From the IMG/VR virus record IMGVR_UViG_3300027788_000006, positions 1-64,000 of that record: a stretch of DNA of 64,000 nucleotides, one strand, 5' to 3'. Within the stretch, counting starts at the first letter, position 1; each line of letters opens with the position of its first letter. Below the pieces are notes generated by a model. The model was not told the origin of the DNA. It ran no database searches and saw nothing but the letters and a program-made list of their open reading frames with translations. Origin of the DNA: a virus. The position numbers and the translations under genes were made by a program. This document shows positions 2,605 through 52,201 of this stretch, piece after piece.

Positions 2605-3156
2605 CTATCGTATTCCAGCAGCAGTAAGCCTAGATAAGATACTATTTATAGAAGTATCTTGTGCTATCCTCTGTGTCCCGGCTCTAGTTATGTTCTGAGT
2701 ATTTGCATCAATTGCAGTTGCATTAGTAGTAATTGCACCTGTATTGGTAGTACCTCTACTTGCACTTGTAACTCGAGCTGTTTGACCTGGGCTTTTTTGT
2801 AAGTTAGTCTCTAAAGCGGATAAAGTATGCAAAACTTTGCCTAAATTTATAACTCTTCCATTATTTGGTAGTTGATATTTCATTATTAAAAAGCTAGTAT
2901 GATCTACTGTGTCTAGAATATAGTCTGAATTAATAAGAGAAAACATCTCATTGGTAATAGTGACTAAACCCTCTGCTGCATCTCCAATTACGGTTGGTGT
3001 AGTTGTTACATTTAATTTTGCTATTCTTTTACCTCCTGCTAAATATGCTAACTCAAACTGTCCTCTAGACGTGTTTTCTTTCATATATATTATACTACTG
3101 CTAGAAAGATGCATGGATCCTCCTGCTACTAAAGTTACTTCTATTTGTCTGTTCAT
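2605..3156 (-). CDS. Hypothetical virion protein with C-terminal coiled coil (head-fibre-like)
   Basis: Last gene of the virion operon. C-terminus INSILSRLTAAGIR, preceded by a heptad-like segment. Confidence 0.55.
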   Translation of the reverse strand: MNRQIEVTLVAGGSMHLSSSSIIYMKENTSRGQFELAYLAGGKRIAKLNVTTTPTVIGDAAEGLVTITNEMFSLINSDYILDTVDHTSFLIMKYQLPNNGRVINLGKVLHTLSALETNLQKSPGQTARVTSASRGTTNTGAITTNATAIDANTQNITRAGTQRIAQDTSINSILSRLTAAGIR

Positions 3157-3212: not shown

Positions 3213-6200
3213 TTATTGCCTTGCGTATTTCATTTGAGGGTAAATTTCAACCGCTTTAGCCAACCCGTTTATACCTGGAGAAAATTTTACTAAATTGTAT
3301 CCTATAGGTGTTCTATCTTTTTTATTATTTTCTCCTAATAGAGTATCTCTTATTTCATCTAGGCTGTTCCCTAGTATACCTGTTAATTGTGCTCCTAATG
3401 AAAGAATAGGTAAACCAGATGCTCTTGGACCTGTCATCTCTGTAGGATCTAAAAATATTGCTGTCTCACGGTATATTCTTCCTAATACATTATGTATTTT
3501 TCTACCTGCCCAGGTTTGTCTAATATCTGTTTTATTATCCTCATCATAATCTCCTCCTGCTAAACTCATCATTAAAAACAATAGAGCCACAGCTCTTATT
3601 TCTGCAATCATAGCTCTCAGGTTTCCCTGTTTCATTTTCAAGAACTCTTGAAAACCTTCTTCTTTTTCAACGGCATTCTTATAGCTGAACTCTTCATTAC
3701 CAACGTTATCCAATAAAAATTTCTCAAAGGCATTTCTTGCTTTCTTCTCTTTTATAGCAGTACCAAAGAAACCTGGTTTAAATACTCCAAATGTAGAAAC
3801 ATCTAAACCTAACTTAACCATATCTGTACCTATTTCCATAAGATATTCATGAGCTCCCACTTCTACATCTAATAACTGACCCATATCATCAAATCCTGTT
3901 TCTGGCCCAAAGTTACCAAATAAACCTCTCCAAGTACCTTGGTCGAAAGTCTCCATAACATGATCATATCTCATTTTACCAAATCTTTCCATAGCAATAC
4001 CTGGTAACCATGATCTATAGTGCATAAAGAATCTATTAATAAGATGTTGTTTAGCTGTAGTCATATCTTCTGGTGCAGTAGTACCTTTAACTTTACTACT
4101 CATTCTATGTACTCTACCTCTGAAGGTATCAAAACTATCATTAGTTTCATTTGGAATAGTAACCTTATATTTATCTAGAGGAGATCCTTTTTTATACTTA
4201 GTATTTTCTATTATTTCCATAGAATCATATAAAGACACTGTACCTTCTGGAAGCTGATCTAATCTTTTTAACTGTCCATTTTCATCTACACCGTGATTTT
4301 TAGACATAGCCACAGCTAATGTAGCATCTAAAGTCTTATCTGCTTGGGCTAAAAATTCAAACCATCTATCTTGTGTTAAGTATTTAGATTTCCAATTAGA
4401 AGCTAGCTCATCACCTCTTCTTTTAGATTGATCTATAAGCATAACTTCAAAGTGTTCTAAGATAGCTCTTACTTTAGGATCTCTATTTATAAGAGCCATT
4501 TCAGCTTCTTTTAATTGCTGTCTGTTATAATGTATTCCTTTTGTAGCTTGAATATGTAGACCTACAAACCCTGCTCCTAAAGCTCCTAATGCAACTGGCA
4601 TTTTTAAACCTAATGCTGATATAGAAGAAAAAGTTTTACCAGCTAATGCAACTCTTATAGCGCTGACTCCTGATTCTGATACAGCATCTGATGTTTTTAA
4701 TGATTGTCCATATAAACTTTCATTTATCATGTCAGTAAATAAATCCGACGAATTCTTTTGATTGTTACCAAATAATTCTCTTACCTGGTCTACACCTTTT
4801 TGTATTGGGTTACCTCTAAGGTCTTCTTGAACTTCACCTACCATACCTTCTTTAAGTACTAACTCTAATAAAAGTAAATCATCTTTTACGCTATTTAAAT
4901 ATTCATACTCCATAGCGCTCTTACCTAATAAATATAATGATCTACCTAGCTCTTTAGATCGTAATGATCTATCAACTTCATTGTCACTATTAAGTAATTC
5001 TCTAGTATATAATCTAGGTATCTCTCTTATAAAATTACCTTCCATATCTACAGACCCTAGTGACATGTTACTTTGTCTAACATTAAACGAATCTAAAGCA
5101 GATTCTTTTATAGCTTGTAATTTATTATCAGATTCTAATATACTATCTATGACACTTTGTTGTACATTACCAATAAATGTAGGGCCTAACTTCATACCAA
5201 ACATCTTTTCAAAATCATTAACTTTTCTTATGTGAAAATCATAAAAGTTTTTTAAAGGCTCATTAGATTGTATTTCTCTATAAGCAGGAGTTAGATATTC
5301 AGAAGCTTGGGCTTCATTTAGTTTCGTAAAAAACTGACCTCCTTTACCTAACCAGGCAGAGTCATGAGTTAACACGTCGTATTCTTGTCTCCACTGTAAT
5401 TTTTTAGCATCTTTAGCTTCTTTAGATATTTTTAAAGAGTCTATAGCTTTAAAAGAGTTTTGTTCCCACACAGAATACTGTGAATTATAGTAATTCATAT
5501 CAGGTGTATAGAAAGTCTTCATCCATCCTATATTACCTGACTTTATAGCTTTATTTTTAAGATCATAAAGACTCTCTGAGTACTTAGCATGTAAATTATG
5601 TGTAACTGGATTTATAAGAAGATCAAAGACATTAACGTTATTATAGCCATTAGATTGCCCCCATTCCAATAAAGCCTCTTCATATTCATAAATTTCCTGA
5701 GCCAAGTCTTTTTCTTTTCGGATCATCACACCCTTCATCTTATGCATAGTCTTATAGATATACCTACTATAAGGAGACTTATGAGCTGAAGATGGTATCC
5801 AAGCTTCTAGAGTACCTCTTCTATTATATTTTATATTATTAATATCTTTTTCCCTAGCTTTTTTATCTACACGATTTATCATGTGGACTTTCATTTGTTC
5901 TATAGTAGTGTGAGTTTCAAATGATGCTTTAGCCATTTCATCTAATAAAGCTTTAGACTGCTTAGAATCTTTTTCTCTTAATTGATTTTTTATCTCAGGT
6001 AAAGAAGAGAATGCTGCAAAATGTTGTAGTTCTTCATATGCTTCTCTTAACTCCTCGTCAGTAAGATACTTAGGATTTAATATACTATCTCCGTTTTCAT
6101 CTAAGATAAATTCTTGCTCTACCCCTAACCCAGCATGTATACTATTTAATATTCTAAATGTCTCTACAATACCAGCGCTTACTTCTTGATCTATTTGTAG

Positions 6201-8138
6201 TCTCTTTATAATAAGTCTAGAGTCTGCCATTCTCTTTTCTAATAAGGCTTTGTCTGAGTATGCAGAGTGTTTAAATTTTCTAGCTAAAGTATTATACCTA
6301 CTCATCTCAGCTGTGATAAGTCTATTTATACTCTCATCATTTGTCATTTCGTTGGCAACAGGTATATGCTCTAAAAATCTATTGTTTGTATCTTCCCCGG
6401 TCCACATGTCTAAGTAAGTAATCTCATCTGTCATTAGATTATTCTCATCTCTCTTAAACATAATAGATATAGGGACTATTCTAGAGTGCCTTACTTTAGT
6501 GACTCCATATTTAGTAAGTAAAGCGTTCTTATACGCATTTAATTGATTATCATATCCTTCAAGAGAACTAGCATACATATCTCCAGTGATAGTTAATCCT
6601 TTTTTAGTAACTTCAGCGTTTGATCCTATTCTAGGGGATTTAAACTTCCAATCATATATTGAAGCAGAACCATCACTAAATATAACTAACACGTCTATTG
6701 TACCTCCTATATTATTTTTCTCATCAGATACAAACTGTTCTACTATAAGTTTAAACTTACCTGTAGTCTTTGTTTCTTTGTTTACAACCAGCTGTTGTGC
6801 TTTAGCCTCTTTAATTAAAAACTTAGCTCCTTTAACTAGAATATCAAATTGTGCTTTGGTAAAAGCAGGGCCTGATTGAGTCAGGATTTGATCATATGAT
6901 CTGTTAGTTTCCCCTGTAAACTTTTTAAGTAACTCTTCCATAACAAGATGACCTTTAGTACCAGTCCTCATACGAATCTCTTGCATGTCTTTTATTATCT
7001 TTACTTCTTTTTCTGTTCTATATTTATTACTAGAATTTTTCTTATACTTTAAAGATCCTTCATCACTACTTCTCTTCTTCAACATCTTATTTTCATATAC
7101 TGTTCCTTTACGGCCTACATAACGTTCAACAACTCCATTATCGGATAGTTTAGTAAAATACTTACGGAAATCTTTAATAGTTACATCTTCTATTTTGACT
7201 TCTTCTATTTCATAGAAAGATGCTTCTTCTGTAAGTTTATTTAAGATATTTTCCTGTCTAGTACCTTCATTATAAAATGTATTACTTTCTAATCCGACAG
7301 TTTTAGACATATTATTAAAATAAGAATCTAAATTTTTGTTTAATACTGAATGAGCAGTTTTAGTAAAAGGATCTCCATTAACTTTATTCATAATAGAACT
7401 TATATATTCCATTACTTTATTAAACCATCTTTTTAATCTCGATTTAACTTGTTTAGTCTCTTTGCCTCCCTCTCTTATTATCTCTTGGTGTATAAGTTTC
7501 CCCATTGCTTCCCGGGCAATCAAATCTTCATTACCCTCGTACAATGAAAAATGCACACTGTTAGGATTCATCAACTCTTTATATATCTCTGTATTTGGAA
7601 TAACTCTTCTCATGGAGTCATATAAAGGGTGTCCTTGAGATTTCAATACCTCTACTATAAAGTGAGATGCTTCTTCTGTTATAATAGATATATCTTGACC
7701 TTCTTTAGTAACCTCTATTAATCTATTGGCTATATCAGCAGCCGCTATTTGGTCAATTGGCTTACCGTTACTGTCAGTGACACTGTTTACCACATTTATA
7801 TCTAAGCCAAGTTTTTCAAACAGGTACTGTAACGAGTCTCCTACTTTAGACTTAAGCATATCCTCTTTAAGAGTCTGAGTCTCTGACTCTAATACTTGTG
7901 GGTTATTTTTAAAAGGAGCTATGATTCTCTGTACTATAGGAGAAATTAATCCTACAGAGTCTTCAGGTATATTATTAACTTCTAGATAATCTTCTACGGC
8001 TAAATAAGCAACAAGAGCTGCTTCCGGATCGTATCCTAAATCTGTTTGTATCTGTTTAAACAATTGAGACTCTGGCCCCTGTGATGTATAAACCGTTTCT
8101 ACTTGCCCTTGAGCATTTCTATCTATTCTACAAGCCAT
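3213..8138 (-). CDS. Giant virion cargo/ejection protein with degenerate zincin-like motif and PD-(D/E)XK nuclease domain
   Basis: 1641 aa, next to the RNAP. EEASH motif; GTKGH...E...GTIDVL...IYDWK...QLNAY nuclease motifs; hydrophobic segments in the C-terminal part. Confidence 0.75.
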   Translation of the reverse strand: MACRIDRNAQGQVETVYTSQGPESQLFKQIQTDLGYDPEAALVAYLAVEDYLEVNNIPEDSVGLISPIVQRIIAPFKNNPQVLESETQTLKEDMLKSKVGDSLQYLFEKLGLDINVVNSVTDSNGKPIDQIAAADIANRLIEVTKEGQDISIITEEASHFIVEVLKSQGHPLYDSMRRVIPNTEIYKELMNPNSVHFSLYEGNEDLIAREAMGKLIHQEIIREGGKETKQVKSRLKRWFNKVMEYISSIMNKVNGDPFTKTAHSVLNKNLDSYFNNMSKTVGLESNTFYNEGTRQENILNKLTEEASFYEIEEVKIEDVTIKDFRKYFTKLSDNGVVERYVGRKGTVYENKMLKKRSSDEGSLKYKKNSSNKYRTEKEVKIIKDMQEIRMRTGTKGHLVMEELLKKFTGETNRSYDQILTQSGPAFTKAQFDILVKGAKFLIKEAKAQQLVVNKETKTTGKFKLIVEQFVSDEKNNIGGTIDVLVIFSDGSASIYDWKFKSPRIGSNAEVTKKGLTITGDMYASSLEGYDNQLNAYKNALLTKYGVTKVRHSRIVPISIMFKRDENNLMTDEITYLDMWTGEDTNNRFLEHIPVANEMTNDESINRLITAEMSRYNTLARKFKHSAYSDKALLEKRMADSRLIIKRLQIDQEVSAGIVETFRILNSIHAGLGVEQEFILDENGDSILNPKYLTDEELREAYEELQHFAAFSSLPEIKNQLREKDSKQSKALLDEMAKASFETHTTIEQMKVHMINRVDKKAREKDINNIKYNRRGTLEAWIPSSAHKSPYSRYIYKTMHKMKGVMIRKEKDLAQEIYEYEEALLEWGQSNGYNNVNVFDLLINPVTHNLHAKYSESLYDLKNKAIKSGNIGWMKTFYTPDMNYYNSQYSVWEQNSFKAIDSLKISKEAKDAKKLQWRQEYDVLTHDSAWLGKGGQFFTKLNEAQASEYLTPAYREIQSNEPLKNFYDFHIRKVNDFEKMFGMKLGPTFIGNVQQSVIDSILESDNKLQAIKESALDSFNVRQSNMSLGSVDMEGNFIREIPRLYTRELLNSDNEVDRSLRSKELGRSLYLLGKSAMEYEYLNSVKDDLLLLELVLKEGMVGEVQEDLRGNPIQKGVDQVRELFGNNQKNSSDLFTDMINESLYGQSLKTSDAVSESGVSAIRVALAGKTFSSISALGLKMPVALGALGAGFVGLHIQATKGIHYNRQQLKEAEMALINRDPKVRAILEHFEVMLIDQSKRRGDELASNWKSKYLTQDRWFEFLAQADKTLDATLAVAMSKNHGVDENGQLKRLDQLPEGTVSLYDSMEIIENTKYKKGSPLDKYKVTIPNETNDSFDTFRGRVHRMSSKVKGTTAPEDMTTAKQHLINRFFMHYRSWLPGIAMERFGKMRYDHVMETFDQGTWRGLFGNFGPETGFDDMGQLLDVEVGAHEYLMEIGTDMVKLGLDVSTFGVFKPGFFGTAIKEKKARNAFEKFLLDNVGNEEFSYKNAVEKEEGFQEFLKMKQGNLRAMIAEIRAVALLFLMMSLAGGDYDEDNKTDIRQTWAGRKIHNVLGRIYRETAIFLDPTEMTGPRASGLPILSLGAQLTGILGNSLDEIRDTLLGENNKKDRTPIGYNLVKFSPGINGLAKAVEIYPQMKYARQ

Positions 8139-8141
8139 ATA

Positions 8142-11100
8142 TTAACACTCTTTATTAGTTTTATTGTATTTACTTTTAACTTTTTCGGATAGACTGCTTG
8201 TAGATCCTTCTTGTTCAGTTCCTTTAGCATCTTCATTAAGATCCATATTACTACGGCTTATGACTGTTATAGCAGCTACATCCATTGTGCTTCCTTTAAT
8301 AAACCCAGGATAGCTCTTAGCAAATCCGGACATGTCCTGGAATCCTAGACTATTTGCGAATGCAAATATAGGGTTTTTATTAGAAATATCTAAAGTATCT
8401 CTTAACCTTTTAGAATCCGTAGACGTACCCTCTAATTTCTTTCTGTTTATAGACCCTATCTCTAAGTTTACCACAGAACCATCTGGTAGCAAGTATTCTC
8501 CTGATATAGGTATAGTTTTTCCTTGTCTAGATAGTAAATGGTTAGTTTTCTCACCATTTAAAACTTTTTTAATATTCTCTAGTCCTAATGGTAACGTTTT
8601 TCTAACTCTCTTGATAGTATTAGAAGGTATAATATTACCTGAAGTCTCTAGAAATCTGTTTTTTACTCCTCTCTTTTCTTGACGTACTAAGTTATCCCCT
8701 TCAAGCCTAAACATATCATAATAATATGTTTTATCTTTTTTATTCTTAGTATGTACAAGAGTTATATATGGATTTTTTAACAAGGCCTCCACAATAAACT
8801 TATCAATTTGTGCTAAAGGTATAATATCTTTATTTAAATGTTTTATTAAAGATTGTTTAGTAGTATACCTCTGTGGAACAATTCTAGGATTATTGTATGA
8901 ATTAGATAAAAAAGAATTATAAGCCTTCTCCCAATAAGCCTGATTAAATCCATGTAAATTAACCTTAGTTACAAAATTAGTATAACGTGGAGAAGTTAAA
9001 GCCAATACATCTTCACTAGGTAATATACTACCAAATGCATAAGGAGAATAAGATAATCCTGATTGAGCTAAGCTAAATTTAAGTAAATCTTCAAATAATT
9101 TAGGGTTTTCTTCTTTAAGAGAATTCATTTCGTCTACTAAATCATTTAAATCTTCTACATCATACTTCTTACCAATAAGTCTTATAGAGTCTATATTAGA
9201 CTCATGACTAGTTTGAGAATATTCATCTAGTATAGGTAATAAATTATCTAAGGCTAAGTTATCTATTCCAACAGCTTCGTCCTTAAGTCTTCGAGGTAAA
9301 CTATTCTCACCTCTAAACATAGGTTCTATTTGTTCTGCTATATTTGTAAATCCTTCTCTTTCTTGTAATATAATATATGCAGATAAGAAATTATCAAATT
9401 GACTTAAGTAATATATAATATCGTCTTTAAATCTATCTGCAGTTATTAAATCTTTAGCAAGTTCAATATACTTTCTATGTATAATATCTGATGAATTTTT
9501 TAAATCTATACCAGATAATATAGTTTTAGAATTCATAAAAGTATCCTTTAAAGGCTGTAAAAAACTATCTTCAATTAATTTATCTGCATTAAGAAACATC
9601 GCTTTTTCGTCTACTTTTTCTTGTAAAGCTTTTAAGTAAATAACTTCGTTTCCATTTTGTAATTTAGTAGTATCATAAGAAGATACTTGTTGTAGATCTA
9701 ATAAGTCCAAACCATATTCTTTGTACCTAAGCATGTCAGTAAGCACTTGTACTTGAACAGACTTTTCATTCTCACTCATATCCTCAAACTTCTTCTCTAA
9801 CATTTCATTCAACCTAGCTTCATTAAACATTCTAGGATTATTAGGAAGCTGGCCGCCATATTTCGTTATTAAGGATTTTTTTATGTTAGAGTTGTATAAA
9901 AAGTCATTACTACTCATAGACTCTGCTTGACTTTCATTCCTAGATTTTACATAGTCATGTATAATAGGCTGAGACATAAAAGATAATACAGTTCTTAAAG
10001 GAACTCCTGATCTTAGTAGTACCATATGTATAGCTGCCATATCTTTACCGGCATTCACATACATTGCAAAAGGATTTTTCTCACCATCAACATATGCTGA
10101 TACATATTTTTGCATAGAAGCATTTATAAATCCTCCTTCTACATCTCTACTTCTAGATAAAGAAACACTAGAAGGATCTATACCTTCGAAATTAAATTCT
10201 ACTTCAGCTAGAGGGTTCCACATTAACCCTGCACGCTGTGCTTTAGCGGCGTGAGTTATCCCTGTAGCTACAATACCAGTACCTCCTAAAGTTTGATACA
10301 TATTGAATGTAGTATCTAGAATATTAGAGAATGAAGTTTCTTCTGATATACTTTTTTTAGTCTTATATCCAGGATTTTGTATTTCATGTATTTCTTCAGC
10401 TCTAGTTTCTAAGTCTAAAGCTCCAACAGGAGTCATTAACTGCGCAAAACTAGAAGGATGTTCTAATACATTTTTCATAAATGTAAGTAATTCATTCTGC
10501 AGAACTTGTCTTGGTTGTATAGCAGTCATATCTATACCTCCTTGCATAGGTGTACCTAACCCACTTAAATCATATTCTGCTAAATCTGCATCTAGCTCTT
10601 CTAATTCTTCTCTGTTTCTTAATTGTTCTAATCTAAAAGAAGCTACTGAAGGAGGCATAAACGTTGTTATTATAGAAGAGTATATATCTATATCTAATTC
10701 TCTCAATCGTTTTAAATCTTCTTTAGAAAGACTTCCATCAGGTCTAGGAGTAAATTCTTTTACTAAGTCAATAGTACCATCTTGAAATTCAGTGTTTGGT
10801 AAATATATAGTTAATTTATCAATATCAAAATCGGCCCCTGTCTTAGCAACCATTTCAGAAGGTACTATAATAGTGGAACCTGCGCTCTGAGGTAAGAATC
10901 CAACTACTTCTATAAAGTCTATTGAATTTAATCCCTCTGTAGGAATTCTAAATCCAATTAATTGTAAAGCTTCTTGAGATGCTTGTTTAACATCAAAGTC
11001 CTTACCTAAGTATTTTTTAAAGTAATGTGGTAAATATACCTGCATCGCTGTAGTCTTACCTGTAGTCTCATCTATATCATAGAACTTTAACTTTCTATCT

Positions 11101-14100: not shown

Positions 14101-14960
14101 GTAATACCTAGTGTGTCTCTACTCACAGCTGTTTCTGTAGAGGCTTCATCTTGTTCTAACTCAGCTACATTCTCTAGATTTTGTTGTATATGTTCATTTT
14201 TTAAAGTTAAACCTAATCGTTCTAAAAATACAACATTACTACTAACCAATGACGGCCATAAAGACTCAAGAAATCCACCCTGATCTAACCACTCATCTAA
14301 ATTATCTAGTTCTTCTCCTATAACTTCTTTTGCAAATGAATCTTCAGATGCTTCGTACTCCTCTAATTTTGTATTGTATATTTCAATAAAATTATCTTCT
14401 ATAGCATTATACACGGACCCAGCAGAGCCAGGCATTCCATATGCTTGTGCTATTTTCTCATATAATCTTTGCGTATCCCCTTCATAATCCATTAACTCCG
14501 AAACCTCCATTCTAAATGAAGATCTATTGTTAAGATATTCTAAGTATTGAGCGTCGGTCTCCGCTTTAGTTCCTGGCAAATTTTTTATAAAAACATCTTT
14601 AGATTGAGTAGTTGTTAGAACATTCATTAAACTAGTTACCATCCCTTCATTTAAATATTTCTGAGTAGCTACTGACACACCTCTCTCAGATAAATATAAA
14701 TTAATATCTTTATGGGATTCTCCTATAAGCTCTATAAAGTCTTCATAAGCTTCTAATCCTCCTAGATTTTTAAAAGTCTCATCATATATATCTTCGTCGG
14801 ATTTTAACTTTTTTACATCGTTATAAGATATTTTACTTAGTTCAATTCTAAGTTTAGCCGGCGTAAAGTCTACTTTATATTTTTCTATAAAGCGATTTAA
14901 TTTTCCCTCTTCCTGCACCCATAAAGCGGAAGGTTTCATATTAGTAAGGTTACAGCCCAT
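8142..14960 (-). CDS. Single-chain virion-packaged DNA-dependent RNA polymerase (crAss-like, phi14:2 gp66 type)
   Basis: 2272 aa. GFRIPTEG...GADFDIDKL catalytic motif (DFDID at 10818-10832). Size and position match crAss-like virion RNAPs. Confidence 0.92.
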   Translation of the reverse strand: MGCNLTNMKPSALWVQEEGKLNRFIEKYKVDFTPAKLRIELSKISYNDVKKLKSDEDIYDETFKNLGGLEAYEDFIELIGESHKDINLYLSERGVSVATQKYLNEGMVTSLMNVLTTTQSKDVFIKNLPGTKAETDAQYLEYLNNRSSFRMEVSELMDYEGDTQRLYEKIAQAYGMPGSAGSVYNAIEDNFIEIYNTKLEEYEASEDSFAKEVIGEELDNLDEWLDQGGFLESLWPSLVSSNVVFLERLGLTLKNEHIQQNLENVAELEQDEASTETAVSRDTLGITASNEINPLTRIKPHLKLLLKTLPQYKINGDPIVNKIGMPKLADFGKTMSVLYSALSNTPDNYSKLIVLRDLASQNATYHVLLKRLNLEEVEEPSDLTSLTKSQFDLYTSFMTAFDNSKDSYSFMNVTSDGNRTMVDSNAESTRNLVKLKWGENFKYNIQRIPKVGEIKGGKSVVNLDYNFKGTPLRTLLVSNLDISQKMDILELLGIKFTDRVKAQGEIDSNDELLDSINWIFQSILTDRSVSNLMKGDESQNVNKLIQVQLDTDLLSGTLQFNSITGRKKYAITLKGFINVLADNLNEDVNDLTSAFGGNVSSPTFLNSEYIKRIKEGNEIEIGVIDGVKNETRPRGKEISSSSKADIMLLHVGSILQGAVPFVRTGNKKLEKTIKVGTPDYSKGIIRMKEQMLGYLESEIRTAHTIQSKNIKDIKGLENGNKLQYFAHPFFAGLNPGASKLISSKNLSEEKLGKYLNSAEVSGAIINYLNNTVKETQDLLFKYNLVKNKGSFVQNIGLDPNVLKKLAQGKKFSEQKMGLLITALGKGMIPSDMVNIVAEQVTFIREEGIIEQIKLFLGHPALYSDLFKRTSGLVSPKKYPDSSQATMNLLDKYYPNQVGEHRRTVRFATREEVTEDSQYIEKYKQQLITVGRPDLLDIIDGTYKNMEVFDGGGLIHIDFYRKTRVLTSSWSKELEATYQKIINDQELDLSDLVMSPLKPQVLAAIDHKGIDIRMFNKFALYPIHPNLSKLVSDKEQSNTNVLDELYEDMNTNDLDYTVFPSSTKLGAQKNNKNTFDEFTDEDGNYSPMENQSSVQTYDLKYFGIQQDPKDNRGSGTVSIGTQSSVMLPTNIFENGAISDEYVASEFSKEESWEQAITRYHNLTSTLIERDMTKLARQLGFKKNSNNQFELIDPSYSKESMKQTILEEMEKRDMPLNTKTAIVTLFDSAGSSHINQLYEKVKIETILNAMITNTVVKRKMPGEQAVLQSNLGFQVTNKATKQKNSTLQLDRKLKFYDIDETTGKTTAMQVYLPHYFKKYLGKDFDVKQASQEALQLIGFRIPTEGLNSIDFIEVVGFLPQSAGSTIIVPSEMVAKTGADFDIDKLTIYLPNTEFQDGTIDLVKEFTPRPDGSLSKEDLKRLRELDIDIYSSIITTFMPPSVASFRLEQLRNREELEELDADLAEYDLSGLGTPMQGGIDMTAIQPRQVLQNELLTFMKNVLEHPSSFAQLMTPVGALDLETRAEEIHEIQNPGYKTKKSISEETSFSNILDTTFNMYQTLGGTGIVATGITHAAKAQRAGLMWNPLAEVEFNFEGIDPSSVSLSRSRDVEGGFINASMQKYVSAYVDGEKNPFAMYVNAGKDMAAIHMVLLRSGVPLRTVLSFMSQPIIHDYVKSRNESQAESMSSNDFLYNSNIKKSLITKYGGQLPNNPRMFNEARLNEMLEKKFEDMSENEKSVQVQVLTDMLRYKEYGLDLLDLQQVSSYDTTKLQNGNEVIYLKALQEKVDEKAMFLNADKLIEDSFLQPLKDTFMNSKTILSGIDLKNSSDIIHRKYIELAKDLITADRFKDDIIYYLSQFDNFLSAYIILQEREGFTNIAEQIEPMFRGENSLPRRLKDEAVGIDNLALDNLLPILDEYSQTSHESNIDSIRLIGKKYDVEDLNDLVDEMNSLKEENPKLFEDLLKFSLAQSGLSYSPYAFGSILPSEDVLALTSPRYTNFVTKVNLHGFNQAYWEKAYNSFLSNSYNNPRIVPQRYTTKQSLIKHLNKDIIPLAQIDKFIVEALLKNPYITLVHTKNKKDKTYYYDMFRLEGDNLVRQEKRGVKNRFLETSGNIIPSNTIKRVRKTLPLGLENIKKVLNGEKTNHLLSRQGKTIPISGEYLLPDGSVVNLEIGSINRKKLEGTSTDSKRLRDTLDISNKNPIFAFANSLGFQDMSGFAKSYPGFIKGSTMDVAAITVISRSNMDLNEDAKGTEQEGSTSSLSEKVKSKYNKTNKEC

Positions 14961-14962
14961 AT

Positions 14963-15187
14963 TTATTTCTTTTTATTATTAGCAAATGATTGCGCACCAG
15001 ATATACCAAAACATCCTAGAACTACCCATGTAAATGAGTCATATATTGTTTCGTTAATTACTAAATCTTTTCCTACGTATCCAGTTATTAAATCTGTGCA
15101 TGCAAATATAACCATTATAGTGAATGCAATGAAGCCTACTATAGATTTTTCATTCCAATCGTTATTATCTTTAAATATATTCCACAT
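14963..15187 (-). CDS. Small two-transmembrane protein
   Basis: 74 aa, two hydrophobic helices, basic C-tail NNKKK; TAATG overlap with the upstream gene. Confidence 0.7.
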   Translation of the reverse strand: MWNIFKDNNDWNEKSIVGFIAFTIMVIFACTDLITGYVGKDLVINETIYDSFTWVVLGCFGISGAQSFANNKKK

Positions 15188-18100
15188 TAGCAGTCGTCTT
15201 TCTTACGTTTCTCACTCCTATGAGTGTTACCCCCTGTTCTTTTTGTTCTATGAGTGTATAATATACCATCATTATCTTTTATTAGTTTTACAGTTTTCTC
15301 TCCCTTCTTAGAGTTCGTGTCCTCAATAAGGTCCGCTAAATACTCCCCTCTATTCTCTGATGAGATATTAGCACCTGCAGGAGGTACCCCTGTTGGAGCT
15401 TGTTCACTTTTTGGCCCTTGGTTAACACTTGGCCCCTGTGGTTTAACAAATACTTTTAAATCCTTTGTAGGAGCCTCTTCTATAGCCTCTTTAGCAGAAC
15501 TAACTCCTATGTCATCTAATTGATCAACTGATTTATTTCTTTCTAGAGTTACAAATCCATTTAAAAATTGAGGTGCATCTAATTCATCAGAAGTTTCTAC
15601 TAAGTTTGTATATGCAGGTATTTGATCTAAAGGCCTATCAACAGTTGTATTACCATCGCCTAGTAAATAGTCTGTATAATTATCCCATTTAGTGGACTTA
15701 ACATCCATATCAGTACCTACTGTAAATTCAAAGAATGGTTCATAAGATGTGGTAGGGTATGTAGGAGCTTTTTCTAAAAATGCTTTTTTCTTACTCTTTG
15801 CAGTTTTCTTTCTCTTTTCATAAGATACTAGATTAGCATTATATTTTTTACCCACATCGCTCCTAGAAGTTAAATCTTTTTTTAGAGAAAAGTAATTTAC
15901 TTGGTGATGTAAGCCTTTTAAAAAATCTAAGAATTGTTTATTAACCTCAGTGTTAGATTCTGGAGTAAGTAATTGATGAAACTCTATTATAGATTCTCCA
16001 AAATATATTTTATTCCCTTGAACATTTAATTTCTTGTGTATAGGCGCATTTTCAAAAGAATGCTTACCCATATATATAGTATCTTTTAATGCGTGAAGTA
16101 TTTGTTTAGGATTACCTTCTTGTAGTATTTGAGACTCTTTGTATGACATCTCTTTATTTTTTACTTGAGCGTGTCTGACAGCCAAAAGCTTAAACATGTT
16201 TAATACATTCTCATATGCAGCTCCTGTTAATTTATTAACTCTTACAGGTACTAACTTACCTGCCTTATTAGTGTAAGGAAATCCTTTAGGTACTTTATAA
16301 TCTTTACCAAATACACTTACTTTACCATTTAATGAAACTCTAAGTCCTATATCTTTAACTTGATGTTTATTATCAACTATGGATCTACTAGCTCTAGCAG
16401 GTGGTCTCTTAATTTCAGGTCTAAATAATAATGTAAAGCTAGCCCCTTTTAATTTTATTAATTTAGGCTCAGTAAGTTGTAATATATCCTCTCTAAATTT
16501 AATATGATCTTTATGAATATCTTGAGCGTCTTGAGTAAGTTCCCCTGTTATACCTGTCTTACCATTCTTTAATAAAATTTCTTGATATGTATCTTCTTTT
16601 AAATCTAATTTACCATATCTATAAACTTCAACTTCTTTACCGTTGGCATCTTGTACTTTCTTAGTTAACTCTGACCCAGGAAGATCCGAGTATATAGGCT
16701 TACCACCTACTAATACTGGTTTACCTTTTACATCTGTTAAAATTAATTTAATTGTTTCCTTGTCCTCAGTTAAGATAGATCCTTGCATATCGGATGCATA
16801 CTTAAATGATTTACTGGAAAGATCATAAAATGTTATTTCAGATTGTAAGTTTTTAGGAATTATATTTTTATTCGCAACCATAAATCTATACTTCTTCATG
16901 TCATACTTAAAGTCAGAAGTTCCTTTAACTTCTGGGTATAGCTTTGGTAAGAATTTAAATAATCTCAATTGAGATTCTACATGTGCATACTTAATTGGAT
17001 CTACTTTCTGCTTTTTAACCAATAGCTCTTGCATCTCCTTATACTCTCTTAAAGCCTGGTCATGCGCGCCTGTAGTCTTCATCATCCTTAACACTGTTAT
17101 AGGAGATGAATTTAAATACATACCAGACTGCTCACCCTGCTTTGTCAGAGTGCCTAGATCAGTATGTGCTCCATGACTATCCGCAACTTCATCGTCTACA
17201 GTATCTTCTGAGAACGACGGATTACGTAATTCGTCCATCTTGTCTCTTAGATATGTGTAATGCCCTATTACCTCATTTTGTAAAGCTTGATAATCTATAA
17301 TAGTTTGAAATGTCTCTTGACCTGCCCTTAAAAGAGAAGATGACATTTGATTTAACTGATTAAGTATCTCAGCTTTTTCAATTTCTAATTCTTTGAATTG
17401 TTTTTTAGATGCTCTTACACCAGGTACACCTTTATTGTTTACGCCAAGAAGTCCTTTTTCTGTTATCGTATATAGATTAGCTAGTCCTGCAATATCTTTC
17501 TCTATAGCAGCTAATCTATCTACTAAGGCTTTAGCTCCGGTATCCACCGATGCTAATAATTCAATAGCTCTATCTTGAGTTGACAACAGAAGATCACCTA
17601 AAGTTTGACTTTTAGTCTGACTATTGTACTCTCTCCAACGGCTTCGTAATATAGAAGCACCTTTTGGATTATCGATTAGATCTTGATTAACCGGAAGATC
17701 TCTAAATTGCTGTAGACTATAGTCTGGTTTAGTAGTATGTAATAAATTCTTGAGGGTAGTATCTTCTATAGAGTCAAATATATTACTTAGTACAGTAGAT
17801 AGCTCTCCGCCCCATTGTCTTTTAAATATACTAGTCATTAAAGCCACAACCTCTTGTTCAGTCTTTGCATTTTCACTTTCCTCTCTTATTCCGTGAAGAA
17901 CTTTCATGTCGTCTTCAACTCTAGTGAGCCTGCTCTTATATTGCTCTAAATCTTGTTTTGCTTTAGATACCCTTTTTTCTAATTTAGATATAGTATTAGA
18001 ATGAGCAGTTTTAGCAAGTGCAATATCTTTAGCGCTGCTTACGTTAGCCTCTATGAATGCCTGTAAATCTGATACAGCTTTTTCTAATTCTTTTTGCATT

Positions 18101-21100
18101 ACATCCATACCTTCTTGTACAACTCCTAATCCTTCTGCTAATTCTTCAGCAGCATAGTCTAAAGAACTTTCAAGATATTCTGAAGTTAGATCATTACCTG
18201 TAATAGTTTTTATATGCCCGTGAGTAGCTTGCAACAACGTAGATAACTTTTCCTTCTGTAATCTAGGCCCAAACCCTAGAGCAGCTAATTCTTTTTCTAG
18301 AACATCTAATCTTGTTCTTGAAGACAAAGCTTCAGCTTTTAAATTTTGTTTTGTATAAGATGCTAATTCTTCCTTAAGTTGTTCTTGCCTTCTTAATAAA
18401 GTTAAAGCTTCTAGAGTTGGAACTGCTATTAATACCTCATCTTCTCCTGATTCTATAGGAGTGTCTTGTACTATAAATCTGTGAGTCTTAGTAACTCCAT
18501 CACTTTCAATATCAAATTCTACAACAGTTCCCTTATGTCTTCTGTATAACCTTTCTAAATCTTTATCATTAAGCTTAATATCACCCTGCTCTTTATTGAA
18601 GCTAAGAACTCTTTGTAACATCATTTCAGGTGGTGCTATAGCTTCTCCTCCTTCAAAGTTAAAAGGCTTTCTTAAAGTAGGATTCCAAACTAAATCCTCC
18701 TTAAGTTCTAATAATTCATTATACATACTTAGGGCCCTGTGTCTTCTAGCTCTAATCTTTCTAGCATCTTTTAACATTTGTATAACATCTTCACTATGCT
18801 GTGCATAAGACGAAGGGTTGCTAGAATTCCAGTTATCTATATAAGTTTGCTCCATTGCACTTAAGTCCGGGTCTAAAGCGTTGCTTATATTTTTAGATAA
18901 ATATGACATTCTATTTAGCACAGAATTTAATTCTGCGCCTAACTCTTCTGTACGTTTATCTTTTTCTTTAGGAGATAAAGATTCATCAGAGTGTACGTTA
19001 TCTATTCTAGCCTGTAAGTCTGCTTTCTTTTGAGCTAACACACTAAACAATTCTTCTAGATGGGTAGGATCTGTAAATTCTTTAATCCCTAATTTTCTTT
19101 TTACTTGCTGTCCTTCAGGAGAGTTCTCTTCTGCTTTCTTATATTTAGCAGGCAATCTTTGAGTTACTTTACTTTGTCTATCCTTAGATTCAGAAATCTC
19201 AGCCTGCCCTGCAAGTGCTTTATCTTCATACTCAGTATTTTCTATAGTAACCCCCGTTATAGCTTCTATAGTTTTTATTATATTATCTTCTCTAAAATCT
19301 GCATCTTCCGAAACAGCCATGGCGTGTACTATAGCATCCTTTTGGCTGCTACCATAATTAACAAAAGATTTATCTACCATCTTTCTAGTATTCTTGATAG
19401 TCTCAGTTCTCGCAACTAGTGCATCTGCTATTTCATTTCTCCTAGTTTCTAGCTCAGTGTCTGTAAGATCATTCTTATCGTTATATAAAAACGTACTTCT
19501 AAATTCTTCTTTAGACAGGCTTTTTATCATATCTATATTATCATATATCTCTTCCTCCATGCCGGCCTCTAATCGAGAAGATATATAATTGTATATAGCA
19601 TCTCCCTCTGCATTCTTAAACATAAAAGGACTATCTATAACATCTGCAAAATCTTTACTATCTTGTATAACTTTATCTCTTACAAGAGAATCAAAGTTAC
19701 GTTCAAAAGCTGCTAGAACAGTAGGATCTTTCTCTAATCTTTCTTTTAATCTAGTTATAGCTTTTTTATATTCTCTTCCCCGTTTTACTGAAGCCCAGGC
19801 ACCGTTCATCTGCCATTTCTTTTCATCTTTCCCTTCTGCAGTTTTCTTACCGGTTTTTCCTTTAGTAGGTATACCCAGAGCTCCTAGAATAAAACCTATC
19901 CCTATTTCTTTTTGTCCTTCTTTGGAGCCATATACATCTGCAAATCTATCATCAAAATTATCTATTAATTCTGCTAACATATTTACTGACTCTCCATCCT
20001 TCTTAGCTTGGTAGTAATTTAGACCAGCAGTTTGCCCAGACAAGTCTAATAGTTTCTGACCACCTTCTTCAACAAATCCTTCATACAAAGGAGTCTTAAG
20101 AACTCTAAATAAATTTCTTGCTACAACTTCTTTCTGTCCTATATTTTTAAATAACTCTCTGTAAGCTCTTCCTTTTTCCGTTAGATTACTTTTAATAGTA
20201 TTTTTCAATGAATTTCTACTACTATTAAATCCTTTACCAAATAATTTTGGAAACATCATATAGTTACTATATCCCACCAAAGCTACGTTACCTGCAAATA
20301 CAGCATTACCAGATTTAGTTGCTATATCCACCAATCCCGACATATCATTTTTACTAGGCTCTTGACCATTATGCTCTTCTTTGTATAGTTCTACTAAATT
20401 CTTAAGTGTAGCATCATAGTGATGCCTAGACTCAACTCCAGCTTCATACATAGCACCGGTACCTAACTGTCTTAAAGTAGTAAGTCCTCCTTGTAATCTG
20501 TGGGGATTTACTACTTTATCTTTAAATAATTGTTTACCTACTGTACTAGAAGTACCAGCCTTTGCATGTTTACTTGATTTAGTAAATAATTGTTTAGCTT
20601 TCATAGCTACCTGACCACGAGCCAATCCAGCACTTAAGTACTCAGACAGCACAGCACCTGTAACAAATGATAATCCATTAGCTACATCATTAGACCAGAA
20701 ATTTGGAGTACCCATAGATCTCCAAAAATTATATTCTTGCTCTTCTTTAGTATAGTAATGAGGAAGCTTATCGTCCATCCAATTGTTAATGCCATCGAGA
20801 CCTCTTTGAAAATCATTATCCCAGAAGTTCTTTGCTGCACTTTCCCCTGGAGTTGCTATTCCTGATAAGAAAGCGCCTCCCCCATAAACTAAACCTGCGG
20901 TAGAACCTATAACATTAGCTCCTACTTTAGTTACAAACTTAGGTAGTGCAAATTTCCACTTTTCTCCAGTGGTTTGACCATAAGCTCTTAAGTCCTCAGC
21001 ATCATCTGATATAAAAGAAAACGGTCTATCTATATAATCAGCATAATCATCATAAGAAACATCATTCAAATTCTTACCATAGATAGGACCACTAGAACTA

Positions 21101-21321
21101 GTTCTTATGCTATGTTCTAAATTACTTTCACCTTCCTCTGGAGTTGATATTTCACTTGCTGATTCAACACCTAACTGCTTTATATATTCCAATTCCTTAG
21201 CTGTAGTTTCAGCTTGTTTTGCCTGAGCTTGGTTATCTACTAATTGATTAGGATCTAAAATTGAATCATCCCCTGGCTGTAAAAGTCCTTGTGTATTTTC
21301 TACTCCTATGCTTTGAGACAT
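15187..21321 (-). CDS. Giant virion cargo/ejection protein
   Basis: 2044 aa with N-terminal Gly-rich hydrophobic segments and long coiled coils; lies upstream of the RNAP as in crAss-like cargo clusters. Confidence 0.75.
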   Translation of the reverse strand: MSQSIGVENTQGLLQPGDDSILDPNQLVDNQAQAKQAETTAKELEYIKQLGVESASEISTPEEGESNLEHSIRTSSSGPIYGKNLNDVSYDDYADYIDRPFSFISDDAEDLRAYGQTTGEKWKFALPKFVTKVGANVIGSTAGLVYGGGAFLSGIATPGESAAKNFWDNDFQRGLDGINNWMDDKLPHYYTKEEQEYNFWRSMGTPNFWSNDVANGLSFVTGAVLSEYLSAGLARGQVAMKAKQLFTKSSKHAKAGTSSTVGKQLFKDKVVNPHRLQGGLTTLRQLGTGAMYEAGVESRHHYDATLKNLVELYKEEHNGQEPSKNDMSGLVDIATKSGNAVFAGNVALVGYSNYMMFPKLFGKGFNSSRNSLKNTIKSNLTEKGRAYRELFKNIGQKEVVARNLFRVLKTPLYEGFVEEGGQKLLDLSGQTAGLNYYQAKKDGESVNMLAELIDNFDDRFADVYGSKEGQKEIGIGFILGALGIPTKGKTGKKTAEGKDEKKWQMNGAWASVKRGREYKKAITRLKERLEKDPTVLAAFERNFDSLVRDKVIQDSKDFADVIDSPFMFKNAEGDAIYNYISSRLEAGMEEEIYDNIDMIKSLSKEEFRSTFLYNDKNDLTDTELETRRNEIADALVARTETIKNTRKMVDKSFVNYGSSQKDAIVHAMAVSEDADFREDNIIKTIEAITGVTIENTEYEDKALAGQAEISESKDRQSKVTQRLPAKYKKAEENSPEGQQVKRKLGIKEFTDPTHLEELFSVLAQKKADLQARIDNVHSDESLSPKEKDKRTEELGAELNSVLNRMSYLSKNISNALDPDLSAMEQTYIDNWNSSNPSSYAQHSEDVIQMLKDARKIRARRHRALSMYNELLELKEDLVWNPTLRKPFNFEGGEAIAPPEMMLQRVLSFNKEQGDIKLNDKDLERLYRRHKGTVVEFDIESDGVTKTHRFIVQDTPIESGEDEVLIAVPTLEALTLLRRQEQLKEELASYTKQNLKAEALSSRTRLDVLEKELAALGFGPRLQKEKLSTLLQATHGHIKTITGNDLTSEYLESSLDYAAEELAEGLGVVQEGMDVMQKELEKAVSDLQAFIEANVSSAKDIALAKTAHSNTISKLEKRVSKAKQDLEQYKSRLTRVEDDMKVLHGIREESENAKTEQEVVALMTSIFKRQWGGELSTVLSNIFDSIEDTTLKNLLHTTKPDYSLQQFRDLPVNQDLIDNPKGASILRSRWREYNSQTKSQTLGDLLLSTQDRAIELLASVDTGAKALVDRLAAIEKDIAGLANLYTITEKGLLGVNNKGVPGVRASKKQFKELEIEKAEILNQLNQMSSSLLRAGQETFQTIIDYQALQNEVIGHYTYLRDKMDELRNPSFSEDTVDDEVADSHGAHTDLGTLTKQGEQSGMYLNSSPITVLRMMKTTGAHDQALREYKEMQELLVKKQKVDPIKYAHVESQLRLFKFLPKLYPEVKGTSDFKYDMKKYRFMVANKNIIPKNLQSEITFYDLSSKSFKYASDMQGSILTEDKETIKLILTDVKGKPVLVGGKPIYSDLPGSELTKKVQDANGKEVEVYRYGKLDLKEDTYQEILLKNGKTGITGELTQDAQDIHKDHIKFREDILQLTEPKLIKLKGASFTLLFRPEIKRPPARASRSIVDNKHQVKDIGLRVSLNGKVSVFGKDYKVPKGFPYTNKAGKLVPVRVNKLTGAAYENVLNMFKLLAVRHAQVKNKEMSYKESQILQEGNPKQILHALKDTIYMGKHSFENAPIHKKLNVQGNKIYFGESIIEFHQLLTPESNTEVNKQFLDFLKGLHHQVNYFSLKKDLTSRSDVGKKYNANLVSYEKRKKTAKSKKKAFLEKAPTYPTTSYEPFFEFTVGTDMDVKSTKWDNYTDYLLGDGNTTVDRPLDQIPAYTNLVETSDELDAPQFLNGFVTLERNKSVDQLDDIGVSSAKEAIEEAPTKDLKVFVKPQGPSVNQGPKSEQAPTGVPPAGANISSENRGEYLADLIEDTNSKKGEKTVKLIKDNDGILYTHRTKRTGGNTHRSEKRKKDDC

Positions 21322-51703: not shown

Positions 51704-52201
51704 TTAACAATTACACCCGCAAGACAGGTCACATATTTCTTTGGATTTTAAATACTTGTCATAAGCATTTTTTATATACCCGGTATTACCGAGTATATAG
51801 ACTTGTTCTGCTGAAGCTTTAGCAGAGCTAATCAATAAGTATATTTTTTGTGCTTTAGCAAGTGCTTTAGAACATCTAGGACATTCACACCCACAATTAA
51901 TTAATTCTTCTGTTAACTTAGCTAAACAACAATCAATATCACAGCTTGCTATAAACGCTGCTGAAGATACTGTTGCACCTCCTTGGGCATATTCAACTTG
52001 GTATACACCATTAGAGATTAAAGTTATATCATTAGTTAAGGTTTCACCGGGAACTGTATAAGTTATCGGATGAGTTATTACTACACTGGATGCATAATTT
52101 GTTATAGTTAAAGCTCCGGCAATACCTGCTCCCGAAGCATCTGTAGTATCTATAGAAACCATTAGACAATCAGGTCTAACGGATACAATCTTTAATGACA
52201 T
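51704..52201 (-). CDS. Cys-rich structural protein (possible tail-hub component)
   Basis: 165 aa; CDIDCC, CGCECPRC, C-terminal CDLSCGCNC; follows the auxiliary capsid-like gene. Confidence 0.55.
   Translation of the reverse strand: MSLKIVSVRPDCLMVSIDTTDASGAGIAGALTITNYASSVVITHPITYTVPGETLTNDITLISNGVYQVEYAQGGATVSSAAFIASCDIDCCLAKLTEELINCGCECPRCSKALAKAQKIYLLISSAKASAEQVYILGNTGYIKNAYDKYLKSKEICDLSCGCNC

What the first reader, a model, noticed from the sequence alone, without database searches (positions are those of the whole stretch)
3213..21321. Terminal-only cysteines suggest a head-to-tail disulfide-linked chain of the three giant ejection proteins, including the virion RNAP
Seen: by manual scan the 2044-aa protein has one Cys, its last residue (KKDDC, codon 15190-15192). 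The 2272-aa RNAP has two, residue 3 (MGC, 14952-14954) and the last residue (NKEC, 8145-8147). The 1641-aa protein has one, residue 3 (MAC, 8130-8132). That is 4 Cys in 5957 aa, each at an end facing the next protein in gene order, while the two outer ends have none. Established: crAss-like virion RNAPs are packaged in the head and delivered into the host. Inference: C-terminal Cys to MxC disulfides join A-RNAP-C into a chain of about 6000 aa that threads through the tail in fixed order and stoichiometry, survives the oxidising periplasm, and is released by reduction in the cytoplasm. This would act as a reversible polyprotein. I am not aware of a description of this mechanism, but I cannot search the literature here.
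Basis: partly seen in the sequence, partly recalled or inferred. Interest (0 to 1): 0.93.

Follow-up and report, generated by a model that had tools for sequence, protein, structure and literature searches.

The report
Terminal cysteines chain crAss cargo proteins
Three giant proteins that this crAss-like phage packs into its particle, with its RNA polymerase in the middle, have no cysteine except one at each end that faces the next protein. Relatives across the phage order keep this rule and drop the pair where the genes are fused, which suggests, but does not prove, that disulfide bonds tie the three end to end into one thread of about 6,000 residues for injection.

Summary
A (2044 aa) has one Cys, its last residue. 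The RNAP (2272 aa) has Cys3 and Cys2272. C (1641 aa) has only Cys3.

The rule holds across the family:
- In cluster representatives and annotated phages, 147 of 150 free RNAP C-ends and 17 of 18 free RNAP N-ends carry a terminal Cys.
- 30 of 31 C homologues and 25 of 27 A homologues do too.
- Internal Cys is about 0.02%.
- Cultured phi14:2, crAss001, p-crAssphage, crAss002 and Fpv1 all fit.
- A-RNAP fusions keep only the C-terminal Cys, RNAP-C fusions only the N-terminal one, and a full A-RNAP-C fusion (5862 aa) has none.

On a tree these architecture changes are few. Independent contrasts are 4 concordant and 0 discordant, which is not significant.

A published precedent carries the same signature. 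In cyanopodophage A4, cryo-EM shows a disulfide between gp27 Cys1715 and gp26 Cys5 (PMC12002296).

The most likely reading (about 0.6) is that end-to-end disulfides lock the docked termini. Threading as a chain and release by reduction are inferred only.

I found no description of this for Crassvirales. This scan has already reported the same pattern on at least eight other genomes.

The parts
15187..21321 (-). Protein A, 2044 aa, the giant cargo protein upstream of the RNAP. Its single Cys is the last residue (codon 15190-15192).
   Evidence: PHROG 32390 matches at E 6.7e-47. An HMM of this family hits crAss001 Gp47 at E 3.9e-31. The N-terminal parts of long RNAP forms are homologous to A.
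14963..15187 (-). Small 74-aa ORF with two hydrophobic segments and 2 Cys, lying between A and the RNAP. Its ATG overlaps A's stop codon (TAATG). It is probably not part of the chain.
   Evidence: Sequence read. Only a weak TrbC/VirB2 hit, E 0.036. Relatives L001 and L002 have no such ORF, with 16-19 nt between A and the RNAP.
8142..14960 (-). Virion RNA polymerase, 2272 aa, with the catalytic DFDID motif at residues 1377-1381. Cys3 (codon 14952-14954) and Cys2272 (codon 8145-8147) are its only Cys.
   Evidence: Matches PDB 6VR4 (phi14:2 gp66) at E 7.4e-18. Motif found. M1 and C2272 are invariant in the 17-sequence alignment A1.
3213..8138 (-). Protein C, 1641 aa, the giant cargo protein downstream of the RNAP. 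Its single Cys is residue 3 (codon 8130-8132). It has a PD-(D/E)XK nuclease-like region at 372-548. Its ATG lies 3 nt after the RNAP stop, in the same frame.
   Evidence: Pfam PF12705 scores 21.9 bits against a cut-off of 22. M1 and C3 are invariant in the 22-sequence alignment A2. The family HMM hits crAss001 Gp49 at E 2.2e-32.
21321..27825 (-). Three Cys-free upstream proteins (780, 852 and 459 aa). The 852- and 780-aa ones sit where crAss001 has cargo proteins gp45 and gp46. They belong to the Cys-depleted block but have no Cys to join a chain.
   Evidence: for Cys counts. The positional analogy to crAss001 Gp45/Gp46 comes and PMC10172136. It is an inference and homology was not tested.
2605..3156 (-). 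Cys-free 183-aa ORF downstream of C, conserved in relative L001 (MNRQIE...).

Best explanation
A, the virion RNA polymerase and C are the three giant RNAP-associated cargo proteins of a crAss-like phage. They behave as a split version of a polyprotein that other members of the family encode as one chain.

Proposed mechanism:
1. During assembly the flexible C-terminal tail of each protein docks on the conserved N-terminal segment of the next.
2. Once the particle meets oxidising conditions, the facing cysteines form disulfides: A Cys2044 with RNAP Cys3, and RNAP Cys2272 with C Cys3.
3. The result is a covalent, unbranched thread of about 5,957 residues.

Because the links sit within a few residues of the ends, and no internal Cys can form loops, the thread stays linear. 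It can therefore be extruded through the tail like a single unfolded polypeptide. This would fix 1:1:1 stoichiometry and the order of exit.

Shown here: the Cys pattern, its conservation, and its dependence on gene architecture. Shown elsewhere: the same signature is a real disulfide in phage A4. Inferred: the bond in this family, the chain-wise ejection, and any later reduction in the cytoplasm.
For: (1) The pattern in the window is exact.

(2) It is conserved in homologues:
- Of the 45 RNAP homologues down to 22% identity, all 28 two-Cys proteins but P0031 have one Cys at each end, or both at the C-end (P0024).
- 30 of 31 C homologues have Cys at position 3-4 and none has a C-terminal Cys.
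- 25 of 27 A homologues have a single Cys in the last 0-5 residues.

(3) In 150 representatives clustered at 50% identity plus the earlier hits:
- A free RNAP C-end carries a Cys within 12 residues in 147 of 150 cases.
- A free RNAP N-end carries one in 17 of 18.
- Internal Cys is 129 in 614,374 residues, or 0.021%.

(4) Architecture dependence:
- A-RNAP fusions lack the N-terminal and junction Cys but keep the C-terminal one. Examples are Fpv1 gp33 (4401 aa, 1 Cys at 4400), P0024, P0029, P0030, cr60_1 and cr7_1.
- The RNAP-C fusion p-crAssphage gp44 keeps Cys3 and has no C-terminal Cys. Its partner gp45 ends ...FSCM.
- The full A+RNAP+C fusion P0134 (5862 aa, all three HMMs) has zero Cys.

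(5) Where an extra split lies upstream, as in L017, the upstream 2036-aa protein ends in Cys and the RNAP protein starts MISC.

(6) The pattern does not depend on gene adjacency. crAss001 Gp47 and IAS gp058 are encoded on the opposite strand and still end in Cys.

(7) Cultured phi14:2 fits, and all three of its proteins were found in virions by MS/MS. gp078 has its only Cys as the last residue, gp077 has Cys3 and Cys2179 of 2180, and gp076 has Cys3.

(8) Precedent: A4 gp27 (1717 aa, sole Cys at 1715) and gp26 (1114 aa, sole Cys at 5) form a disulfide seen by cryo-EM (PMC12002296).

(9) Disulfides do occur in crAss001 virions, between tail hub and ring proteins (PMC10172136).
Against: - No direct evidence exists for the bond in any crAss-like phage.
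- Phylogenetically independent support is thin. There are only 3 (N junction) and 6 (C junction) architecture changes on the RNAP-core tree. Independent pairs are about 2+2 concordant, 3 unchanged and 0 discordant, and the sign test is not significant. The Fisher p-values are therefore inflated by relatedness.
- Virions assemble in a reducing cytoplasm, and gut crassviruses live without oxygen. A disulfide could form only late, and cannot by itself explain co-packaging.
- Some terminal Cys have no evident partner: p-crAssphage gp47 (Cys856 of 857) and crAss002 gp30 (Cys550 of 557).
- Gut lineages carry several internal Cys: p-crAssphage gp44 has 8, and IAS gp056 has 10.
- Fused forms work without any redox step, so release by reduction is not required by the data.
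Confidence: 0.6

Rival explanations
1. The same termini do contact each other, but through a shared metal site or another non-disulfide bond rather than a disulfide. The Cys would act as ligands together with nearby His, Asp or Glu residues.
For: The pairing logic from fusions shows who partners with whom, not the chemistry. Virions assemble in a reducing cytoplasm, where metal sites form readily.
Against: One Cys per terminus gives only two thiolate ligands per junction. No conserved His or Cys stands next to them: the tails are variable and polar (KKDDC, NKEC, ESQNC). The one experimentally resolved case with this signature, A4, is a disulfide.
Confidence: 0.12
2. Each terminal Cys binds something other than the neighbouring giant protein. 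This could be a homodimer (A-A, C-C), a portal, capsid or small cargo protein, or an intramolecular N-to-C closure of the RNAP with A linked to C.
For: Unpaired terminal Cys exist in smaller cargo proteins of p-crAssphage and crAss002. Sequence alone cannot assign partners.
Against: The numbers of C-terminal and N-terminal Cys stay matched in every architecture: 2:2, 1:1, 1:1 and 0:0. In A-RNAP fusions the only Cys left are the RNAP C-end and the C N-end. In RNAP-C fusions the only terminal Cys left are the A C-end and the RNAP N-end. This is what neighbour pairing predicts, and homodimer or ring models do not. The other cargo proteins in this window have no Cys at all.
Confidence: 0.12
3. The terminal Cys have no linking role. 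Cys is purged from ejected proteins, as in N4-like phages, and is merely tolerated at disordered ends or favoured by start or stop codon context.
For: Cys depletion of ejected vRNAPs and ejection proteins is established for N4 and DEV (PMC11445570). The tree shows few independent architecture changes.
Against: Mere tolerance would not hold exactly one Cys at each split-facing end in hundreds of clusters at 50% identity, while the neighbouring tail residues vary freely. It would not leave the outer ends of A and C Cys-free either. Schitoviridae homologues lack Cys at the termini too. The pattern also persists when the genes are not adjacent.
Confidence: 0.06

Closest known systems
Cyanopodophage A4 (Anabaena phage A-4L) pre-ejectosome proteins gp27 and gp26 (PNAS 2025, PMC12002296)
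   Same: Two consecutive giant ejection proteins, each with a single Cys: gp27 at 1715 of 1717 and gp26 at 5 of 1114. They are encoded by adjacent genes in that order. Cryo-EM shows the gp27 C-terminal helix docked in gp26 and locked by a Cys1715-Cys5 disulfide. The sequence signature is identical to the one here.
   Different: No sequence homology: the A, RNAP and C HMMs give no hit. A4 has two proteins, not three, and no RNA polymerase. It is a T7-like podophage with an ordered pentameric core. The authors describe one stabilising bond, not a family-wide rule or a link to gene fusion and splitting.
RNAP cargo block of Crassvirales: phi14:2 gp65-gp66-gp67 (gp66 = PDB 6VR4; GenBank gp076-078) and crAss001 gp47/gp49/gp50
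   Same: These are the same three proteins. The RNAP matches 6VR4 at E 7e-18. crAss001 Gp47 and Gp49 hit the A and C HMMs at about 1e-31. All are virion-packaged. They share the terminal-Cys pattern.
   Different: The papers held in the library do not mention these cysteines, or any disulfide between cargo proteins. They note only that the three are fused into a polyprotein in some phages that is 'likely cleaved'.
N4-like (Schitoviridae) virion RNAP and ejection operon (N4 gp50-52, DEV gp71-73)
   Same: A giant ejected RNAP with near-total Cys suppression, explained by passage through the periplasm. N4 gp50 is one polypeptide with NTD, core and CTD arranged as beads on a string, like the fused A-RNAP-C forms.
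   Different: The polymerase is unrelated (T7-like, not two-barrel). Cys is absent at the ends too, so no disulfide chain is possible.

Membership tests
crAss-like two-barrel virion RNA polymerase (phi14:2 gp66 family) | Sequence homology to the solved gp66 | tested here: met
   6VR4_A at E 7.4e-18 over residues 848-1823. tblastn hits 132 crAss-like phage records.
crAss-like two-barrel virion RNA polymerase (phi14:2 gp66 family) | Catalytic DFDxD motif | tested here: met
   DFDID at 1377-1381. D1377, D1379, I1380 and D1381 are invariant in A1.
crAss-like two-barrel virion RNA polymerase (phi14:2 gp66 family) | Packaged in the virion and ejected | not testable with these tools
   Shown for phi14:2 and crAss001 by MS. 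Inferred here by orthology.
A4-type disulfide-linked consecutive ejection proteins | The upstream protein has its only Cys within a few residues of its C-terminus, and the next protein has its only Cys within the first 5 residues | tested here: met
   A Cys2044/2044 with RNAP Cys3, and RNAP Cys2272/2272 with C Cys3. For comparison, A-4L has 1715/1717 and 5/1114.
A4-type disulfide-linked consecutive ejection proteins | A disulfide is observed between the two termini in the virion | not testable with these tools
   Needs non-reducing gels, MS or cryo-EM.
A4-type disulfide-linked consecutive ejection proteins | Sequence homology to A4 gp27 or gp26 | tested here: not met
   No hit of the A, RNAP or C family HMMs in A-4L ORF25-29, even at E 10. 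This is an analogy, not family membership.
Cys-free ejected proteins (N4/DEV type) | Near-absence of internal Cys | tested here: met
   0 internal Cys in 5957 aa here, and 0.021% across the family.
Cys-free ejected proteins (N4/DEV type) | Absence of Cys throughout, ends included | tested here: not met
   Four conserved terminal Cys.

The most novel reading that the evidence does not exclude
Across Crassvirales and allied Bacteroidota phages, the RNAP cargo is a 'split polyprotein' whose pieces are rejoined after translation by terminal disulfides into one linear thread of about 6,000 residues (about 670 kDa). The thread leaves the capsid as a single string, which fixes order and stoichiometry. 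It is then separated, or simply refolds, in the reducing cytoplasm. On this reading every evolutionary gene split is compensated by a new Cys pair. Disulfide chaining of ejection proteins would be a general and convergent device, since A4 has it too.
Probability: 0.35. Interest if true: 0.85.

Novelty: new variant of a known kind. Interest (0 to 1): 0.7.

Why it matters
How phages push megadalton protein cargo, including a 250-kDa RNA polymerase, through a narrow tail in the right order is an open question. The 2026 N4 paper and the 2023 crAss001 atlas both say that the crassvirus cargo remains unresolved.

A conserved covalent tether would explain several things at once:
- co-packaging and ordered exit of the cargo;
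- why the three genes can be fused or split freely during evolution;
- why internal cysteines are purged while terminal ones are kept.

It can be tested directly in cultured phi14:2 and crAss001 with a non-reducing gel and disulfide-mapping MS.

It also has a practical use. The M-x-C start and the C-terminal Cys are good markers for correct gene boundaries. At least two public annotations miss them.

Tried and rejected
I could not read the genomic neighbours of most metagenomic proteins.
- **P0192** is an RNAP fused to the first ~330 residues of C that still ends in Cys, a possible shifted split site. Searches for its locus in viral and metagenome contigs found nothing.
- **Residue-level alignment** of the fusion junctions of P0134, P0164 and P0208 to the window's termini failed. 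The tails are too diverged.
- **Tree-based independent contrasts** were concordant but too few for significance. The Fisher tests should therefore not be read as probabilities.
- **The IAS virus 'extra split'** (gp055/gp056) is rejected as an artefact, because the junction lies in a run of N.
- **Readthrough of the in-frame RNAP stop into C** was considered and set aside. The frame relation is not kept in phi14:2 (2-nt gap) or L002 (53-nt gap).
- **A start-codon artefact** is rejected.
- **Lipidation or intein-like chemistry** was considered and set aside. There is no signal peptide or lipobox, and the Cys is not residue 1.
- The final Nature version of the phi14:2 paper is not held. Only the preprint was checked for 'cysteine' and 'disulfide'.
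Full report
**What is there**

On the minus strand the window carries, in transcription order:
- Cys-free ORFs of 459, 852 and 780 aa;
- protein A (15187..21321, 2044 aa);
- a 74-aa ORF with two hydrophobic segments (14963..15187);
- the RNA polymerase (8142..14960, 2272 aa);
- protein C (3213..8138, 1641 aa);
- a Cys-free 183-aa ORF.

The middle protein is a crAss-like virion RNAP. It matches the solved phi14:2 gp66 (PDB 6VR4) at E 7.4e-18 and carries DFDID at 1377-1381. Protein C has a borderline PD-(D/E)XK nuclease match. Protein A matches PHROG 32390.

- A has one Cys, its last residue.
- The RNAP has Cys3 and Cys2272, its last residue.
- C has Cys3 only.
- The outer ends have none, and all codon coordinates agree.

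Base composition predicts 21-29 Cys codons per gene. The seven-gene block has 0.05% Cys, against 0.87% in the other virion genes.

The starts are real. Relatives at 53-73% identity begin MGC and have no Met at position 8, so the public call that starts this RNAP at Met8 (P0001) is an error. In alignments, M1 and C2272 of the RNAP and M1 and C3 of C are invariant.

Two relatives lack it.

**The rule is family-wide**

Two IMG/VR relatives keep it. In the homologue searches:
- Among the 45 RNAP homologues down to 22% identity, all 28 two-Cys proteins but P0031 have one Cys at each end, or both at the C-end (P0024).
- 30 of 31 C homologues have Cys at 3-4 and none at the C-end.
- 25 of 27 A homologues have a single Cys in the last six residues.

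A profile-free HMMER scan of 1.84 billion cluster representatives gave 2,990 relatives. Among the best 150 plus the earlier hits:
- 147 of 150 free RNAP C-ends have a Cys within 12 residues.
- 17 of 18 free RNAP N-ends have one.
- Internal Cys is 0.021%.

Annotated and cultured phages agree:

| Phage | Upstream protein (A, or A-RNAP fusion) | RNAP | Downstream protein (C) |
|---|---|---|---|
| phi14:2 | gp078, Cys as last residue | gp077, Cys3 and Cys2179 of 2180 | gp076, Cys3 |
| crAss001 | Gp47, Cys2339 of 2341 | Gp50, Cys5 and Cys2404 of 2412, plus one internal | Gp49, Cys5 |
| IAS virus | gp058, Cys2110 as last residue, plus one internal | gp055/gp056, Cys5 and Cys2157 of 2159, plus internal Cys | gp057, Cys5, plus 6 internal |
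| cr60_1 | gp27 (A-RNAP fusion), Cys4491 of 4494, plus 6 internal | fused into gp27 | gp26, Cys3, plus 4 internal |
| cr7_1 | gp32 (A-RNAP fusion), Cys5443 as last residue, plus 12 internal | fused into gp32 | gp33, Cys3, plus 12 internal |
| cr108_1 | 22606+22607 (A-RNAP fusion, interrupted), Cys797 of 798 in 22607, plus 3 internal | fused | 22608, Cys5, plus 4 internal |

All three phi14:2 proteins were found in virions by MS. In crAss001 and IAS virus, gene A is on the opposite strand. The pattern is therefore not a by-product of junction nucleotide signals.

**Dependence on architecture**

BLAST and family HMMs show that the long RNAP forms are A-RNAP fusions.

- A-RNAP fusions have no N-terminal or junction Cys and keep one C-terminal Cys. 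An example is Fpv1 gp33 (4401 aa, sole Cys at 4400), whose partner gp34 starts MAC.
- RNAP-C fusions are the mirror image. p-crAssphage gp44 (4070 aa) starts MSC and has no C-terminal Cys, and its partner gp45 ends ...FSCM. crAss002 gp33 has the conserved MSC 32 codons inside its annotated start.
- The full A+RNAP+C fusion P0134 (5862 aa) has no Cys at all. P0173 and P0194 also have none.
- Where an additional split lies upstream, as in L017, the upstream 2036-aa protein ends in Cys and the RNAP protein starts MISC.

Terminal Cys numbers are thus always matched (2:2, 1:1, 1:1, 0:0). The fusions identify the partners as A C-end with RNAP N-end, and RNAP C-end with C N-end.

**Caveat on independence**

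On a tree of the RNAP core (160 rows) the N junction changes state only 3 times and the C junction 6 times. Independent pairs are concordant or unchanged and never discordant, but they are too few for significance. The Fisher values (3e-14 and 9e-9) are inflated by shared ancestry. The stronger argument is the retention of single terminal Cys over very deep divergence, while the adjacent tail residues vary.

**Mechanism**

Earlier notes of this scan pointed to a paper, which I checked. In cyanopodophage A4, cryo-EM shows the C-terminal helix of gp27 docked into gp26 and locked by a Cys1715-Cys5 disulfide (PMC12002296). I confirmed on the A-4L genome that ORF27 (1717 aa) has its only Cys at 1715 and ORF26 (1114 aa) its only Cys at 5. 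Neither is homologous to A, the RNAP or C.

So the same signature is a real disulfide in an unrelated phage. crAss001 virions also contain disulfides, in the tail.

I therefore favour terminal docking locked by disulfides, at about 0.6. This gives an unbranched thread equivalent to the fused polyprotein, and to the single 'beads-on-a-string' N4 vRNAP.

The following remain inference:
- extrusion as one string;
- survival in the periplasm;
- reductive release. Fused forms show that release is not obligatory.

Points against are set out in the Against line: reducing assembly conditions, anaerobic gut habitats, unpaired terminal Cys in p-crAssphage gp47 and crAss002 gp30, and more internal Cys in gut lineages.

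**Novelty**

Cys depletion of ejected vRNAPs is known (PMC11445570). A two-protein terminal disulfide is known in A4. The phi14:2 preprint and the crAss001 atlas do not mention cargo cysteines, and full-text searches found no description for Crassvirales.

The three-protein chain that includes the RNAP, its spread across the order, and its link to gene fusion and splitting are a new variant of a known kind. This scan has already reported the same pattern on at least eight other genomes. The present window is one more clean instance.

**Limits**

- Two locus searches for a possible shifted split, P0192, found nothing.

Noticed in passing
window 14963-15187 (-): A 74-aa ORF with two hydrophobic segments and 2 Cys sits between A and the RNAP. 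Its ATG overlaps A's stop (TAATG). Relatives L001 and L002 lack it. The only family hit is a weak TrbC/VirB2 pilin match (E 0.036). crAss001 also has a small gene (Gp48, 63 aa) at the end of its RNAP block.
   Followed up: partly
window 8136-8147 (-): The RNAP stop and the C start are in the same frame, one codon apart (TGT TAA TAT ATG GCT TGT). In L001 the ATG follows the stop directly. The frame relation is not kept in phi14:2 or L002.
   Followed up: partly
P0001 (the window's RNAP as called in public data); L006 15954-16052 (crAss002 gp33): Public gene calls hide the motif. The window's RNAP is on record from Met8, which drops MGC. crAss002 gp33 is annotated 32 codons upstream of the conserved MSC start.
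   Followed up: yes
L005 5180-7753 (p-crAssphage gp47); L006 5259-6932 (crAss002 gp30): Smaller upstream cargo proteins of gut crassviruses have a single Cys near the C-terminus (856 of 857, and 550 of 557) with no obvious N-terminal partner. The chain may be longer in these phages, or these proteins may form homodimers.
   Followed up: no
L009 14794-15085 (cr108_1): The A-RNAP gene is interrupted by about 290 nt exactly inside the catalytic motif (...AKAGSD | LYDIDK...). This looks like an intron-type insertion rather than a true split. No Cys pair is present at this break.
   Followed up: no
L008 11860-11900 (IAS virus gp055/gp056): The apparent split of the IAS RNAP lies in a run of ambiguous bases (N). 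It is probably one ORF, starting MSLYC and ending ...NLCXK.
   Followed up: yes
P0074 residue 595; P0192 C-terminus: P0074 is a 2872-aa homologue of C whose single Cys is internal, at 595 (...NELIC|TLKS...). P0192 is an RNAP fused to the first ~330 residues of C that still ends in Cys. They may represent a fusion that kept one junction Cys and a shifted split site. Their genomic context could not be retrieved.
   Followed up: partly
window 6500-7025 (-), residues 372-548 of C: A PD-(D/E)XK nuclease-like region inside the ejected protein C. Pfam PF12705 scores 21.9 bits, just under the cut-off of 22.
   Followed up: partly
window 39777-51689 (-): A 3970-aa virion-block protein has 210 Cys (5.3%), the opposite extreme to the Cys-free cargo block. 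A 165-aa ORF with 12 Cys, ending CGCNC, lies just upstream at 51704-52201.
   Followed up: no
L005 30570-31837 (p-crAssphage gp39, gp37); L009 26037-26306 (cr108_1): Phage-encoded thioredoxin genes lie a few kb from the RNAP cargo block, on the opposite strand. They may be unrelated, since thioredoxins often accompany nucleotide metabolism genes, but they are worth noting for a redox-dependent cargo.
   Followed up: no
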